Counted from the first letter of the whole stretch, positions 4,536-55,961 are shown. The stretch: DNA of 63,284 bases, filler included, from Perkinsus chesapeaki ATCC PRA-425 (GCA_013115145.1; 9 parts of 9 records of this genome joined end to end with filler, not necessarily neighbours in it), one strand, 5' to 3'. The notes: generated from the sequence alone by a model not told the origin. Translations and numbers: made by a program.

Positions 4536-5556
4536 TAGATTGAGAATCTTCAGAAAGTAGTTACGATGACGCAACGAGTCACATGTTGAAAATATTATAG
4601 GAGTAATAAATATGTAATAAGCTAGTAATGAGCTTATTATTGTGGAGATGTAATCAAAGACTATCGCGACTAACTTGTCCACAACAAACAATTCTTGCTT
4701 CAATATCAACATATATTCAATTTGAGAATTTTCTGTGAAAACTTGATAGCAAATTAAAGCTTCCTTACCATTTGCCAATTATTAAATAACCACGGTATCG
4801 TTAAAGTGGCAATCATAGTTGCACCGGCGACAATACCAACCCCCAGATGGAAATAGATGTATTGCTCAGAGACAGAGGTCCAGATAACGTACACTAGCAA
4901 ACCTAAAAAATCAACAAAAAACATTTTGTACTCCGATTTATTCGTGACAAAAAATTTGCAGAAATGTACATGTTATCGTTATGTTTGGAGTAACGTTATA
5001 AACTATATTAATAATATAATATCAACACGGTGTTAATAACACCATGAGCTATAATGTCATAAGTGTTATTAGAATACAAACACGATGCATTCATTATGTT
5101 ATATAGTATACTACGTACAGTACGCGCAATCTAAAGACCCAATTTCGTATGGATGGCTCAACTTATTAACTACTGCCGCTCATATCAGCCTGCTATCTTG
5201 TATAGGAACTCTCCTAACATGGATATATTATTGAAATATCCGACAGACTTAATTTTCGAAGAAAACTTTTTTGGCACTTTCATGATATAAACTCTACTAC
5301 GTATAGGCATCCTCGAGGAGCATGAAATGGGAGCGAGGATAACTTTATATATTTCACAGGAATGCGTGGCCGCGGAAGGCAGCAAAGAGCTCACTTGAAT
5401 TGAAGAGAAAAACCCTTATACACAAAGCCTTGCTAAATACGATCCGCTGTCTCGCAGGAAACGGAGCTACCTGATGCACATGCGGAGGAGGCCATCACCG
5501 GAACTATTGGTAAGAACACCGTCAATGTACCTGGGGAGGCAGAAAATGCACACAAC

Positions 5557-5636
5557 ACCCGCCATCTAAAGACGGTCAAACTTTCAACGGGTCTCATGCG
5601 TTCAATTTTCAGAGCTTTCAACCGAAATTTTGCATG
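5557..5636. repeat. 80-bp repeat, copy B (inverted relative to 2408-2487)
   Basis: See copy A. Confidence 0.85.
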
Positions 5637-6457
5637 CAGACAACTGGAAGTAACCAGATTGAAGATTAGGACGATACGATGGAGTTAGTTCTGGGCTAAA
5701 AACATGGCAGTTCCTAAAACCCTTGGCTGTGATAACCCGTGTACAGTGTATATCGAAAGATGCTTCTCATAGGTCACCAATAATTCAGTAGGAGCCTTCA
5801 AAGGGTCGCAAGATATTGTATAACTTACGACGAACTGTTTAATACAAACATAGCGATATGATAAAATAGAGATGAATAATATACTGAAAACATATATGTT
5901 TAACATAAAAGCTGCACGTATTGTATACAAGGGCTACCAACTTATGATAAAGGATAATTGCCTCATAGTTCTAGTTACAGCGCCGATTGCACTCAATCAA
6001 CCTCCCAAGAATCTTTCAGATGGTTATCTTTTACCAGTGATAACGGCTATCAGTACCACAATCTGCATAGGTAAAAATGGTGATGCTGCGAGAATGACCG
6101 ATGCCACTGATAAAGTGATACATACTATGATATAAGTGAAGCAGCTTGGACCATGTATTCGTATAGGATATATTAACACTATTAATGGTGTTGTAAAACT
6201 TAACCACCAAGAGTCAAAGGTCGGGGGGAAACTGGGCATTGCCATTAATCAGATCCAAACAAACTACCAGCCGAGCTCGCGTACATCTCCGAAATATCAA
6301 AAAGCATTGCTACGAGTAGGTTACATGATCTCTCATATAAGAGAGTTAAAGACGAAGGAAATAGTCGACATCGTACAGAGTCCACCACAAAGACTCCGTT
6401 GCCAGCTCGCGTACTGAGGGAATATAACTGTTATTTCAGCGCTGACTTCCCACTGGA

Positions 6458-6494
6458 AAGTCGGTGGGAGGTCGGTGGGAAGTCGGTGGGAAGT
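6458..6494. repeat. 11-bp tandem repeat (AAGTCGGTGGG), about 3.4 copies
   Basis: Directly visible, one variant unit. Confidence 0.8.
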
Positions 6495-7808
6495 TCCCAG
6501 CGCTTCATTGCCGGCTAATAGCTGCATATTCAACACGATGTGTTGAATAACATAGACAAATTGTCCATGGTGTGTCCACAGGACAATGTGAAGTGATGTT
6601 TAACTCATCATGCAATCATTCAGAAACACACACTAATTCATGTTCGTCTGGTCAAGTAACAACTCCATGAATCTAGCGCGCTTAGAGCGGTCCTTCTCAT
6701 GGAAGTACCTAATGGATGACTTCTTGAAAAATGTACGTGGCACTCAACCTTCAAACTCCCCACGTTCATTATTGTGGCTAGTATGTGCAACAATACACAT
6801 GTATTGCGGCACATACACAATATATGTGTATCAATATACATGTATCACATATTCTCTATGTATATGTATCTCGCCACATGTATTTCAAACTACAGAGAGT
6901 TCGCAGTAAAAACGTAAAATTGAAGAATACAACGCCGACTTGACTAAGACTGGTCGCCTTCCACTGACAGTATCAATTATACGGGAAAAGACTGTACAAT
7001 AAAACGATCGATCTAGGATACAAATTTGACCAGTACCAGCAGTATTCGGAGAAGTCGCAGATCTTACATATATTGTCCAGCATCGTATTGCCACTCCTTT
7101 GTTCGCCCATCAGGTAACTGCGAAATCATTAATCGCTAAGCGGCTCTGTGGGAGGTACATCTCGCCAGCGACTCAAGTCAGGCTTGGTATTGAACTCCAT
7201 AAGAACATCTCTTCTCTGTTGATCCGTCAGCCCTAGATCACATCGTGGGGGCCGGGGGAGGGCGCACTTCATCTGAGTCGACATCAGCTAACACACGTTT
7301 TAATGACGGACTTCAATATCGATAACCACTAGCAATCGGTAAGCATACCAGCCGCCGTACTTCGGGTGCAGGTTGAGACCGAGTATCTGAAGAAACGATT
7401 GCAACGATTTTCATCGCAGTATCATTTTAGCTTCAGCCAGTCCACGTTGCGCCCATGCCACGGTGCGAAATATAGGTGACGTTATTATGAGAGGCGTGGC
7501 GGTTCGAAGAGAAGAGCTCCATGGATATTGTTGCATTCTTTAGATCTTCCTCAATGAAAGGAAGCAAAACTTTTTTGTATTGAGGCATGAAGTGTTTCAC
7601 ACCAAGTGTAAATCACCTTATCATAAGCGGAGCCCCATAAATCAGGGTTGCGGACGGCGTGCATGCCTTCTCTGACCTCGGCCTCCCACTCAGCTCGATC
7701 TGAGGTGTCATCGAGAGAGGTAGGGGCAACATGCATGTCAAGGCCGGCGACATGACCGATAGATTGGACCTATCGAGGATTCAGTGTCGGACAAAAAAGA
7801 GCCAAAAA

Positions 7809-53560: not shown

Positions 53561-54552
53561 CTAGCGGTTTTGCTGATTGGGTCTGTTCTGTGTGTTACTA
53601 GTCTGGTGGCTCCCCCCATTAGCCGAACCACCGCCGCTGGCATGAGGCGGAGAACCATACTGATTATATCCTTTGCCTTTTCCTTTCCCCTTGCCCTTAT
53701 GAGATCGATTCCAATTACCAGACGGACGCGGACGGTGCGCGACCTCAGATAGGAAGCGGGAAAAGAATGGCGCCGTAAACTCTTCAGAAAAACATTCCCA
53801 CGTGGCTTTGCCAGTTGCTGCTATGCCTGGGACTGTTAGGCGGAATGCACGGTCAGCTTCAACAGCACGATACGGGGACATGACCGCAATCCTGGATATC
53901 TCACATTGGTATCCCAGGAAGGTGAACAAGTGCTGTCTCGATTTTGGATCAACCAGGCAAATAGAGAACATATAGCGAGCAAACTGCGCACTCCACTTAT
54001 TAAAGGCGCCTTGTTCTTCATACTGGGCTCCGTTGTAACCGTGACCTTGGCCGTGAAACTCGTTTCCCTCATCGTATACCTCAACCACCTTGCCGGATGT
54101 GGTTGTGCGCAGCCGTTTCCTCGTATTGCCCTCTGAACTACTGTATGCCAGTAGTTTGAAGTCAACGTAGCTACTACTCGACTTGCTCAATACCCTCATA
54201 ACCTTTTCATCAGGAATAAGGTAAGGGGGGATAGGTCCATACTCAGGTGTGATGCCTTGCACTAGGCGCTCAATGGTTGTAGGGGAACCTTCCCGGTCAA
54301 CTATCTTGTGACCCTCTTCCAGGAGTCGTTGGGCTTCGGCGCTTACGGCACTAGCACAGCAGCACGCAATTCTCAGAAGACCACTGTCAACCTTGGTGGT
54401 AGTCGCCGAGCCAGTACTTGACGGAACCGCGGAACTCCCCGTCGCGGAACCAGTAGATGTGGAGCCACCAGGTTGTGAACCAGAGGGAGGTGACGACTCT
54501 GCTGTCGTGGAATTAGCGAGTGGCTGAGTAGCCGGTCCAATTGGAGGACCCT
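53561..54552 (-). mobile_element. Retroelement ORF1/gag-like protein, possibly DIRS/Ngaro type (5'-truncated by linker)
   Basis: Frame open from the contig end. Ser/Thr/Gly-rich N-part, core ...FLGYQCEISRIA...AVEADRAFR...ATW (resembles the xDxxFR...W motif of DIRS ORF1), KGKGKG basic tail. Confidence 0.45.
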
Positions 54553-54902
54553 NNNNNNNNNNNNNNNNNNNNNNNNNNNNNNNNNNNNNNNNNNNNTTAA
54601 TTAATTAANNNNNNNNNNNNNNNNNNNNNNNNNNNNNNNNNNNNNNNNNNNNCTCGAATTCGTGGCTAAACTTCCAGGGAAATAACGTAGGGAACTAGTG
54701 CGACACGTGCTCTACTGCGTGAGCAGTGGTACCGATCGCAGAAAGGTGCACTCTAGTTTGTTCGACAGGGAAGGCAAGAGCGACTTGAACACAATTATGA
54801 TAAGACTGTGCCTTGCAGAGACTCGAATAGGCAGCCAGAAATAGGAAAATGCCATGGCACGTGCTCTAGTACGGAATCAAATCCCAACTTATTCACCATT
54901 GA

Positions 54903-55301
54903 TCAGGTCAGGGAAGACTGGCACATCCGCCCTCTTTCGGTGAACCAGGACCCGCGGTTGATCGCCCGAGCTGCCGAGGCTGCTGCCTTCCTCCCCTGTT
55001 CCCTCACGAATAGGCCATAAGGGGGATGGCGCTGGACTCCTTTTTCGATGAGCGATACCCATCGTTCCAGAACTTCGCAGCTTGCTGCTGGAGTTAACGC
55101 TCGAAGAACATCCAACTCGGTCGCATCGACATCCGCATTGTTCTCATGACATATGTTCTGGAACCTCTGCAATAGGCGTTTCTTCATACGAGCGCGGCCT
55201 TTAGGCCTCGGTCCACCCAATCGCCCTGCTCTGATAGTCGTCCCCTGTAGGCCAGACTCAACACTAGGCACTGGGGGAAAAGCGGAACCGCCATAAATCA
55301 T
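54903..55301 (-). CDS. Hypothetical ORF, probably repeat-derived
   Basis: 132-aa ATG ORF only, no motif recognised. Confidence 0.25.
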   Translation of the reverse strand: MIYGGSAFPPVPSVESGLQGTTIRAGRLGGPRPKGRARMKKRLLQRFQNICHENNADVDATELDVLRALTPAASCEVLERWVSLIEKGVQRHPPYGLFVREQGRKAAASAARAINRGSWFTERGRMCQSSLT

Positions 55302-55939
55302 ACTCTCGTGAAACCCATCATAAGAATACTACCTGCCGCCGAGTGGCCTGAAGCGTGTTGATTCGCAATCTCGGTCGATGAAGAATCGGCACTTCTAGGT
55401 TCACGGCTGCAAAACGAGCTTGTAACACCACTCTTTCCTACCACGTTAACTGAAGACGTTCCGGCTCAAAACTTCCGAGAAATGCTATACTAGCGTTGAA
55501 GACTTACCTCGGCTTGGATTTGCACGCGGCAAACCCGACACACAGGCATTGCTCCTAACCTCACTGTCGCTCACTGTCATCAAGTCGCTCGACGATGCGT
55601 GCTGAGCCTCAGCTGAACATGCCCAATAGAGGTTAATATATGACTGGACCAGTCAGATTGATAGACGACTTACTATTCGGAGCATACTTGAGCAGCACAT
55701 ACTTATCTCTGATGAATGCCGCCATTTTCGTTACACCTTGCAAGTTTAGCAAGTAAATCTCATTGTGTCATTATGCATACACATACCACTTTCTCGCGAG
55801 GCCCGCGGCCTCAAGAAGTTTCGAGGGAGAGTGCGCTCATAATAACTGTTCGAGGTCTCATTCCCGACGCTTCTCATCCGAGCAATCCACCTGAACGTTG
55901 GGCCAAATTACGAACGAATACACAATATGGTTGGTTTAA

Positions 55940-55961
55940 CAATGTGCCACATTGAATGTGG
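55940..55961. other. Zig-zag +14-nt scar (target CAATGTGG)
   Basis: c-AATGTG-c-CACATT-g-AATGTG-g. Confidence 0.85.

What the first reader, a model, noticed from the sequence alone, without database searches (positions are those of the whole stretch)
5022..55961. Recurrent stereotyped +14-nt zig-zag scar: a candidate hAT excision and hairpin-annealing repair signature
Seen: 22-nt motifs b1-X-n1-revcomp(X)-n2-X-b8 with X = 6 bp. Perfect arms occur at 14585, 49386, 51362, 51961, 52305, 53341 and 55940. One-mismatch copies occur at 5022, 19234, 26987, 31073, 31564, 49336, 49407 and 53357. The expectation for a perfect copy at uniform composition is 4^-12 per site, about 0.004 per window. The spacers are not free: n1 is the complement of b8 and n2 the complement of b1 in 26 of 30 cases (chance 1 in 4 each). 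So each motif equals T[1-7] + revcomp(T[1-8]) + T[2-8] for an arbitrary 8-bp target T. Established: hAT elements make 8-bp TSDs and excise via flanking hairpins that lose the element-proximal base on one strand. Inference: both hairpins are opened beyond the TSD, and the resulting complementary 8-nt overhangs anneal, always adding 14 nt. This implies dominant microhomology-type repair and a genome-wide fossil record of jumps. I noticed none in intact conserved CDS, as expected for a frameshifting insertion. The list is from eye-scanning and is probably incomplete. I do not know of a description of this in Perkinsus.
Basis: partly seen in the sequence, partly recalled or inferred. Interest (0 to 1): 0.9.

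Follow-up and report, generated by a model that had tools for sequence, protein, structure and literature searches.

The report
Uniform transposon excision scars in Perkinsus
Non-coding DNA of this clam parasite is dotted with 22-base "forward, inverted, forward" copies of unrelated 8-base words, which are likely the healed wounds left where a cut-and-paste transposon jumped out, so the genome would keep an unusually uniform record of past jumps and of how it mends hairpin-capped breaks.

Summary
The motif is real. All 15 listed sites are at the stated coordinates, and the 26-of-30 spacer rule holds. The form T[1-7]+revcomp(T)+T[2-8] occurs 6/20/41 times with 0/≤1/≤2 mismatches, against 0/0/1.3 in shuffles; 8-nt targets stand out. 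Sites avoid coding DNA (0 of 37). Five sites recur in contigs of two samples, so they are not assembly artefacts. A near-identical database protein is labelled Perkinsus chesapeaki.

Both junctions carry the complement of the element-adjacent base, the published signature of hAT flank hairpins. An intact multicopy element with short TIRs and a perfect 8-bp TSD lies at 51264-52242.

No empty or occupied allele was found for any scar, and no transposase. Full 8-nt annealing is unnecessary, since any two hairpin tails totalling ≥8 nt give the same product. "Dominant" repair is unproven, because precise excision is invisible, and P. marinus is scored as having Ku70/Ku80/Lig4.

Verdict: a known kind of footprint in an unusually uniform, dense, natural form.

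The parts
1584..1605 (.). 22-nt motif, 1 mismatch; likely inside an intron of the minus-strand SDR gene (GT at 1693, AG at 1523)
5004..5025 (.). 22-nt motif, 2 mismatches, AT-rich, abuts 5022
5022..5043 (.). 22-nt motif, 1 mismatch
8191..8212 (.).
14585..14606 (.). perfect 22-nt motif
15350..15371 (.).
18387..18408 (.).
19234..19255 (.). 22-nt motif, 2 mismatches to the full model
26987..27008 (.). 22-nt motif, 2 mismatches to the full model
30520..30541 (.). 22-nt motif, 2 mismatches
31073..31094 (.). 22-nt motif, 1 mismatch
31288..31309 (.). 22-nt motif, 2 mismatches
31564..31585 (.). 22-nt motif, 2 mismatches to the full model
40345..40366 (.). 22-nt motif, 2 mismatches
47831..47852 (.).
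47892..47913 (.). 22-nt motif, 2 mismatches
49218..49239 (.). 22-nt motif, 2 mismatches
49336..49357 (.). 22-nt motif, 1 mismatch
49386..49428 (.). two abutting motifs: 49386 (perfect) and 49407 (1 mismatch)
50244..50265 (.). 22-nt motif, 2 mismatches
51256..51263 (+). left copy of the 8-bp target site duplication of the intact element
51264..52242 (.). 979-bp TIR element, 16-bp TIRs (15 of 16 match) starting CAGGG, no transposase hit; multicopy family; likely non-autonomous and hAT-type
52243..52250 (+). right copy of the 8-bp target site duplication, identical to the left
51334..51383 (.). two motifs (51334, 2 mismatches; 51362, perfect arms) in the subterminal part shared by several copies of the element
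51911..51932 (.). 22-nt motif, 2 mismatches, inside the element
51947..51982 (.). five-arm in-register chain (motifs at 51947, 51954, 51961; the last is perfect)
52305..52326 (.). perfect 22-nt motif
53185..53206 (.).
53341..53378 (.). two overlapping motifs: 53341 (perfect) and 53357 (1 mismatch), offset 16
55641..55662 (.). 22-nt motif, 2 mismatches
55940..55977 (.). two overlapping motifs: 55940 (perfect) and 55956 (2 mismatches), offset 16
56295..56316 (.). 22-nt motif, 2 mismatches
56552..56657 (.). three unrelated motifs at 56552, 56594 and 56636, each 42 nt apart

Best explanation
The 22-nt motifs T[1-7]+revcomp(T)+T[2-8] are real and fixed at an 8-nt target, and they are likely excision footprints of a hAT-type transposon whose two hairpin-capped donor ends were rejoined through microhomology supplied by the duplicated target. 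Steps: (1) an element inserts and duplicates an 8-bp target T (shown for one element in the window; inferred for the scar sites). (2) On excision the element takes one flanking base on one strand at each end, and each flank is sealed as a hairpin whose tip is the complement of the element-adjacent base (established for hAT; its trace at both junctions is shown here). (3) Each hairpin is opened on the 3' side, farther from the tip than Artemis or Pso2 usually cut, or a short tail is lengthened by snap-back synthesis (inferred). (4) The left tail reads revcomp(T) from one end and the right tail from the other, so once they total more than 8 nt they pair in register, and trimming, fill-in and ligation give the same +14 product whatever the nick positions (geometry shown, biochemistry inferred). 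(5) Joining through the shared 6-nt core would instead restore the empty site invisibly, so +14 is the main visible outcome, not necessarily the main outcome. (6) Scars decay neutrally, are purged from coding DNA, and some are carried along inside later elements.
For: The excess is specific to an 8-nt target: 20 sites at ≤1 mismatch vs 0 expected; lengths 7, 9 and 10 give 2, 0 and 0. [quoted passage not shown] An intact element with 16-bp TIRs and a perfect 8-bp TSD lies at 51264-52242, and contigs of other copies break off at its two ends with different flanks. Targets are unrelated words with at most a weak T at position 2 (28 of 73, p=0.024 uncorrected). Mismatches fall in all three arms (7 left, 12 middle, 19 right, 1 all) and 22 of 38 are transitions, as for decay after formation. 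0 of 37 sites lie in coding stretches. One product arises for all tail pairs with kL+kR≥8. Microhomology accompanies 85-100% of Ac/Ds footprints in Arabidopsis and 88-89% in yeast, with arms up to 20 nt in yeast (as cited in PMC5873905).
Against: No empty or occupied allele was seen: contigs of two samples carry the five motifs laid, with no 14-nt indel (contigs drop rare variants). No paralogous copy lacking a motif exists in the window. Removing 14 nt does not restore reading frames more often than at random sites (2 of 37 above the 95th percentile of 50.65, plus one at 50; no long frame appears). No transposase of a flank-hairpin family was found among 194 of 197 ORFs ≥75 aa. Assayed hAT footprints are heterogeneous and mostly short (PMC5873905, PMC3499496 passages), unlike this. 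The classical short footprint is not seen outside one AT-rich inverted-repeat pair, and this is unexplained if the species has Ku70/Ku80/Lig4 as P. marinus is scored to have. The density (3.9 per kb of non-coding DNA at 47.8-56.7 kb) and close pairs (11 gaps ≤61 nt vs 4.8 expected, p=0.0008; 6 vs 3.0, p=0.054, without overlapping pairs) require many re-insertions at the same spots, including in-register ones at 51947-51982.
Confidence: 0.72

Rival explanations
1. Same hairpin chemistry and repair, but the cutter is another 8-bp-TSD family: a Mutator-like element, or a family whose chemistry is unknown, such as Merlin.
For: Muta1 (MULE) makes flank hairpins in vitro (PMC5499845 passages). Merlin elements have 8-9-bp TSDs, and Merlin-related ORFs and remnants are reported in P. 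marinus (PMC8101967 passages). No transposase was found in the window to decide.
Against: The only verified 8-bp-TSD element has short TIRs starting CAGGG, not the terminal GG of Merlin; long TIRs and 9-bp TSDs are usual for MULEs (recalled). No 9-nt class is seen at ≤1 mismatch. More than 90% of Muta1 excisions in yeast are precise. Perkinsus was not found in the 3 supplements of a MULE survey.
Confidence: 0.12
2. Replication template switching (a short inverted triplication) at arbitrary sites, with no transposon.
For: Formally the motif is a four-point template-switch product with switch order 3-4-1-2. Other palindromes (even-centred and 2-nt loop, arms ≥8) are also above shuffles. No occupied allele was seen.
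Against: Events in which point 4 precedes point 1 were not observed among 794 human-chimp events (PMC5453318 passages). Template switching gives no reason for a fixed 8-nt fragment or for the same 1-nt offset at both junctions.
Confidence: 0.07
3. No element ever sat there: a nuclease or an aborted integration makes an 8-nt staggered break, each end is filled in to one base short and sealed as a hairpin, and the same repair follows.
For: This gives the identical 22-mer by geometry (inference). It would ease the need for very many complete insertion-excision cycles and for in-register chains.
Against: I know of no host nuclease with an 8-nt stagger and broad specificity (recalled), and no call supports one. 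An intact 8-bp-TSD element in the same window offers a known source.
Confidence: 0.06
4. The motifs are an assembly or library artefact, or selected protein-binding sites.
For: Two motifs lie in the shared subterminal part of the element, where binding sites could lie.
Against: Five motifs recur in separately assembled contigs of two samples (one run may be the window's own source). Arms show transition-rich decay, and the 8-mers share no sequence.
Confidence: 0.03

Closest known systems
Ac/Ds (hAT) excision footprints in Saccharomyces cerevisiae, Arabidopsis and Candida albicans (PMC5873905, Discussion and passages; PMC1978519 passages)
   Same: Palindromic P-nucleotides centred on the complement of the element-adjacent base; microhomology at most joints; 8-bp target.
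   Different: The known sets are heterogeneous: 28 types among 128 clones in C. albicans with arms ≤3 nt, and arms up to 20 nt in yeast. Here one two-sided, full-TSD-length form accounts for 6 of the 8 exact two-sided footprints found, and it is read from a natural genome, not from a reporter.
TcBuster, Tol2 and Hermes (hAT) donor-site repair (PMC3499496, PMC8151067 passages)
   Same: Flank hairpin, 8-bp TSD, small insertions complementary to the flank.
   Different: Repair is ascribed to NHEJ, with a few inserted bases and deletions; no fixed +14 class appears in the passages read.
Muta1 (MULE) excision (PMC5499845 passages)
   Same: Flank hairpins; TSD-dependent repair.
   Different: More than 90% precise excision in yeast; the +14 form would be the visible sister product of such TSD-guided repair.
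Four-point template-switch mutations (PMC5453318 passages)
   Same: Creates local inverted copies; this motif is formally type 3-4-1-2.
   Different: That type was not observed in human-chimp data, and template-switch fragments are not fixed in length.

Membership tests
hAT excision footprint | Built on an 8-bp target duplication | tested here: met
   Target length 8: 20 sites ≤1 mismatch vs 0; lengths 7, 9, 10: 2, 0, 0
hAT excision footprint | Palindromes centred on the complement of the element-adjacent base | tested here: met
   47 of 60 junctions in sites chosen on arms alone; identical base 5 of 60
hAT excision footprint | Empty allele lacks the added bases; occupied allele shows T-element-T at the same locus | tested here: inconclusive
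   Five motifs laid against 4 runs from 2 samples: all carry them, no 14-nt indel; no paralogous empty copy in the window
hAT excision footprint | A TIR element with an 8-bp TSD is or was mobile in the genome | tested here: met
   51264-52242, perfect TSD, multicopy with different flanks; TSDs of the other copies could not be paired
hAT excision footprint | A hAT transposase is encoded in the genome | tested here: inconclusive
   None among 194 of 197 window ORFs by Pfam; no whole genome held
hAT excision footprint | Weak palindromic target preference (nTnnnnAn for the Ac family, recalled) | tested here: inconclusive
   T at position 2 in 28 of 73 (p=0.024, uncorrected); T2 and A7 together 6 of 37 vs 2.8 expected
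Typical NHEJ-repaired Ac/Ds footprint spectrum | Heterogeneous, mostly short P-insertions and deletions | tested here: not met
   Exact two-sided footprints: 6 of +14; the short 1+1 form only twice, both in one AT-rich inverted-repeat pair, 0.8 expected. One-sided and deletion footprints cannot be counted without alleles
MULE excision footprint | MULE transposase or long-TIR element with 8-9-bp TSD | tested here: inconclusive
   None seen in the window; genome not searchable
Four-point template switch | Variable fragment length; point 1 precedes point 4 | tested here: not met
   Length fixed at 8; order 3-4-1-2 was absent from human-chimp events
MMEJ-only (c-NHEJ-lacking) parasite | Loss of Ku70/Ku80/Lig4 | not testable with these tools
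   Not testable for this species; P. marinus is scored 3 of 3 present by eggNOG (the Lig4 group is shared with ligase I, and the table scores Toxoplasma Ku80 as absent, so it is noisy)

The most novel reading that the evidence does not exclude
Perkinsus resolves hairpin-capped breaks by a route distinct from the apex-nicking and NHEJ route of plants, yeast and animals, although it likely keeps Ku and Lig4: tails run past the midpoint of the TSD and pair with each other, so that nearly every imprecise excision leaves the same +14 mark. The genome would then hold on the order of ten thousand self-dating scars (three copies of one word diverging like an LTR pair), an annotation-free map of where and when DNA transposons jumped and a natural read-out of a protist DNA-repair pathway.
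Probability: 0.35. Interest if true: 0.72.

Novelty: new variant of a known kind. Interest (0 to 1): 0.5.

Why it matters
Excision footprints are usually so variable that they can be recognised only by comparing alleles. A fixed, sequence-independent 22-nt form can be counted in a single assembly. If allele data confirm it, it gives (a) a census and rough dating of past cut-and-paste activity, (b) target-site preferences of elements long gone, and (c) a direct statement about hairpin opening and end joining in a lineage between apicomplexans and dinoflagellates whose repair is little studied and which is being developed for genome editing (PMC8062965 passages). The chemistry is not new: hairpin footprints with microhomology are textbook for hAT elements. 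What is unusual is the uniformity and the density.

Tried and rejected
Whole-genome scan: no genome held. Allele test: only 5 runs from 2 samples hold the region. Self-BLAST of 36 motif flanks and alignments of four duplicated regions gave no empty paralogous site. The frame-restoration test (lengths only) was not above control. A metagenome scan for the element's 24-nt end gave 0 matches. Searches with the ORF at 32906-33325, suspected as a transposase relic, gave an Atlas hit of only 0.76 and two homologues without a Pfam family; it is part of a spliced Perkinsus gene with no motif inside. A loose TIR+TSD scan gave 4 hits vs 0-3 in shuffles, so that scan alone proves nothing; the element rests. 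A 5-bp (Transib-like) class was rejected: the 6 exact hits include TIR copies, an AT run and parts of other palindromes. Isolated odd-centred palindromes (arms 7-16) are above chance, but so are even-centred ones, so I do not count them as footprints. NHEJ loss as the cause is not supported by P. marinus data. Three papers requested by id were not held, so Yu 2004, the Hermes cleavage structure and the Ac/Buster target consensus are recalled or cited second-hand.

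
Full report
OBSERVATION. A scan of arm lengths 3-9 and 12 spacer pairs against local trinucleotide shuffles singles out 6-nt arms with 1-nt spacers: 7 perfect copies vs 0.2, and 30 with at most one mismatched column vs 2.0. Elevated cells such as 5/1/3 or 4/3/3 are sub-patterns of the same 14-nt period. The full model T[1-7]+revcomp(T)+T[2-8] gives 6, 20 and 41 sites at 0, ≤1 and ≤2 mismatches in positions 1-60800, against 0, 0 and 1.27. After dropping two hits inside a Tc1-like TIR and two AT-only hits, 37 sites remain; about one may be chance.

CONTEXT. A 538-aa database protein labelled Perkinsus chesapeaki maps exon by exon to 32299-35339, with several exons 94-100% identical. 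The ORF at 53564-54550 has a P. marinus relative at 61%. None of the 37 sites overlaps the 18 coding stretches I delimited (17% of the window, p about 0.0009); one lies in a likely intron. Density is 3.9 per kb of non-coding DNA at 47.8-56.7 kb and 0.33 per kb elsewhere. Mismatches fall in all three arms (7 left, 12 middle, 19 right, 1 all) and 22 of 38 are transitions, which fits neutral decay after formation. Targets share no word; T at position 2 is mildly favoured (28 of 73, p=0.024 uncorrected).

AN INTACT 8-BP-TSD ELEMENT. Positions 51264-52242 have 16-bp TIRs starting CAGGG (15 of 16 match) and an identical 8-bp duplication. A loose scan alone is not above chance (4 vs 0-3). However, contigs from two samples break off at 51263-51264 and 52242-52244 with several different flanks, and the subterminal contig is far deeper than its neighbours (771 vs 80-86 in run X1; about 2-4-fold in the second sample), so this is a multicopy family (the tool warns that depth is not copy number). 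Pfam found no transposase of a flank-hairpin family in 194 of the 197 ORFs ≥75 aa (three tandem-repeat ORFs were left out). The hAT label therefore rests on TIR shape and TSD length (recalled), not on a protein.

ALLELE TEST. Five runs from two samples hold the region. Four were laid on 50400-52310. The motifs at 51334, 51362, 51911, 51954 and 51961 are bridged by contigs of both samples with 0-1 other letters and no 14-nt indel. This removes the artefact reading (one run may be the window's own source; the other sample is separate) but gives no empty allele. It also shows that 51334 and 51362 lie in the part shared by several copies of the element, so genomic copies are not all independent events. 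No paralogous empty site exists in the window. Removing 14 nt does not restore frames above control. That the motif is a +14 insertion is therefore inferred, not shown.

MECHANISM. hAT transposases make a hairpin on the donor flank and excise blunt or with a 1-nt 5' overhang (PMC8151067 passages; PMC5499845 passages). Ac/Ds footprints carry P-nucleotides centred on the complement of the element-adjacent base, usually with microhomology (PMC5873905 Discussion). Applied to T-element-T, the left hairpin reads T1-T7, then comp(T8), then back along revcomp(T); the right hairpin is its mirror. Opening on the 3' side gives tails that read revcomp(T) from opposite ends. Opening to 5' overhangs would put T8 and T1 themselves at the junctions, a form with 0 sites at ≤1 mismatch. 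Every pair of tails with kL+kR≥8 gives the same 22-mer. That explains the uniformity without a precise nick, and it means the sequence cannot show that all 8 nt annealed. It does require tails longer than the cut 2 nt 3' of the apex reported for Pso2 and Artemis (PMC3299998 passages), or snap-back extension of a short tail (inference). Joining through T2-T7 would restore the empty site invisibly, so dominance can be claimed only among visible two-sided footprints: 6 of the 8 exact ones. The short 1+1 form appears only in one AT-rich inverted-repeat pair. Loss of classical end joining is not an available explanation on present data: P. marinus is scored with Ku70, Ku80, Lig4, Mre11, Rad50, XPF and the PolA/PolQ group present and Rad52 absent (PMC6635534 Table S1 rows; a noisy, eggNOG-based table for another species).

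RIVALS. A MULE or Merlin cutter cannot be excluded. Template switching is unlikely: the motif is switch order 3-4-1-2, and types with point 4 before point 1 were absent from 794 human-chimp events (PMC5453318 passages); nor would it fix the length. A staggered break without an element gives the same geometry but has no known agent. Close pairs are in excess (11 vs 4.8; 6 vs 3.0 without overlaps), and the five-arm chain at 51947-51982 needs an in-register second event. These are the least comfortable facts for the simple model.

PRIOR KNOWLEDGE. Ten full-text searches of open-access papers listed no description of this motif in Perkinsus and no fixed +14 hAT footprint. The library lacks most subscription papers, and the primary yeast and Arabidopsis footprint studies could not be read, so the +14 form may be one listed class there. 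I read passages of PMC8062965, PMC3499496, PMC5499845, PMC8101967, PMC3706591, PMC5453318, PMC6635534 (plus rows of Table S1), PMC1978519, PMC4423477, PMC8151067 and PMC3299998; passages and the Discussion of PMC5873905; and a supplement search only for PMC6446971. Earlier AI notes from this scan describe the same form in five other windows, three of them called Perkinsus or Perkinsus-like. They are unchecked leads and are not counted as support, but they suggest it is genus-wide and that this window is not unique.

VERDICT. A real, strongly non-random feature, best read (0.72) as hAT-type excision footprints healed through TSD-derived microhomology; about 0.84 for any flank-hairpin transposon. 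It is a new variant of a known kind: the chemistry is textbook, while the uniformity and density in a natural genome are unusual. The allele series and the transposase remain to be shown. Interest 0.5.

Noticed in passing
window 4045-4535: 491-bp Tc1/mariner-like element: about 115-bp TIRs, TA flanks, and a helix-turn-helix ORF fragment (Pfam HTH_23/HTH_38, below cut-off).
   Followed up: partly
window 2408-2487 and 5557-5636: 80-bp inverted repeats (91% identical) 3.2 kb apart, enclosing the Tc1-like element and motifs 5004/5022; no clear TSD.
   Followed up: no
window 7013-8053: Candidate 1041-bp element with TIRs starting CTAGGATA and an 8-bp TSD with one mismatch; weak, not verified.
   Followed up: no
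window 40450-40856: Inverted-repeat pair of about 64 bp around a 300-bp interior, MITE-like.
   Followed up: no
window 51680-51858: One of two versions in the second sample skips 177 nt inside the element; another family member skips most of the interior (51305 to 52135).
   Followed up: no
window 56552, 56594, 56636: Three unrelated motifs exactly 42 nt apart, each with identical outer arms and one difference in the middle arm; unexplained.
   Followed up: no
window 53341/53357 and 55940/55956: In both overlapping pairs the second target starts two bases into the first (offset 16); it may reflect re-insertion preference.
   Followed up: no
window 9059-9089, 49539-49571, 2517-2539, 32439-32459: Long perfect palindromes with one central base (arms 15, 16, 11, 10); they could be one-sided hairpin footprints.
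   Followed up: partly
window, e.g. 27744-27843, 48886-48985: Gaps are written as 44 N + a 12-nt all-frame-stop linker + 44 N; short overlaps beside gaps (35384-35467 vs 35575-35658; 27844-27993 vs 30239-30388) may be scaffolding duplicates.
   Followed up: no
window 60974-63284: Very AT-rich (about 27% GC or less), low-complexity piece with an Asn/Ile/Tyr-rich ORF, unlike the rest; possibly organellar DNA joined into the scaffold. Left out of most counts.
   Followed up: no
window 35900-39090: Three tandem truncated-globin genes (two with Pfam Bac_globin hits; the third by DNA similarity) with introns.
   Followed up: no
window 29237-30364: Single-ORF GH19 chitinase gene (Pfam 5e-40), with a second copy's start at 27844-27993.
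   Followed up: no
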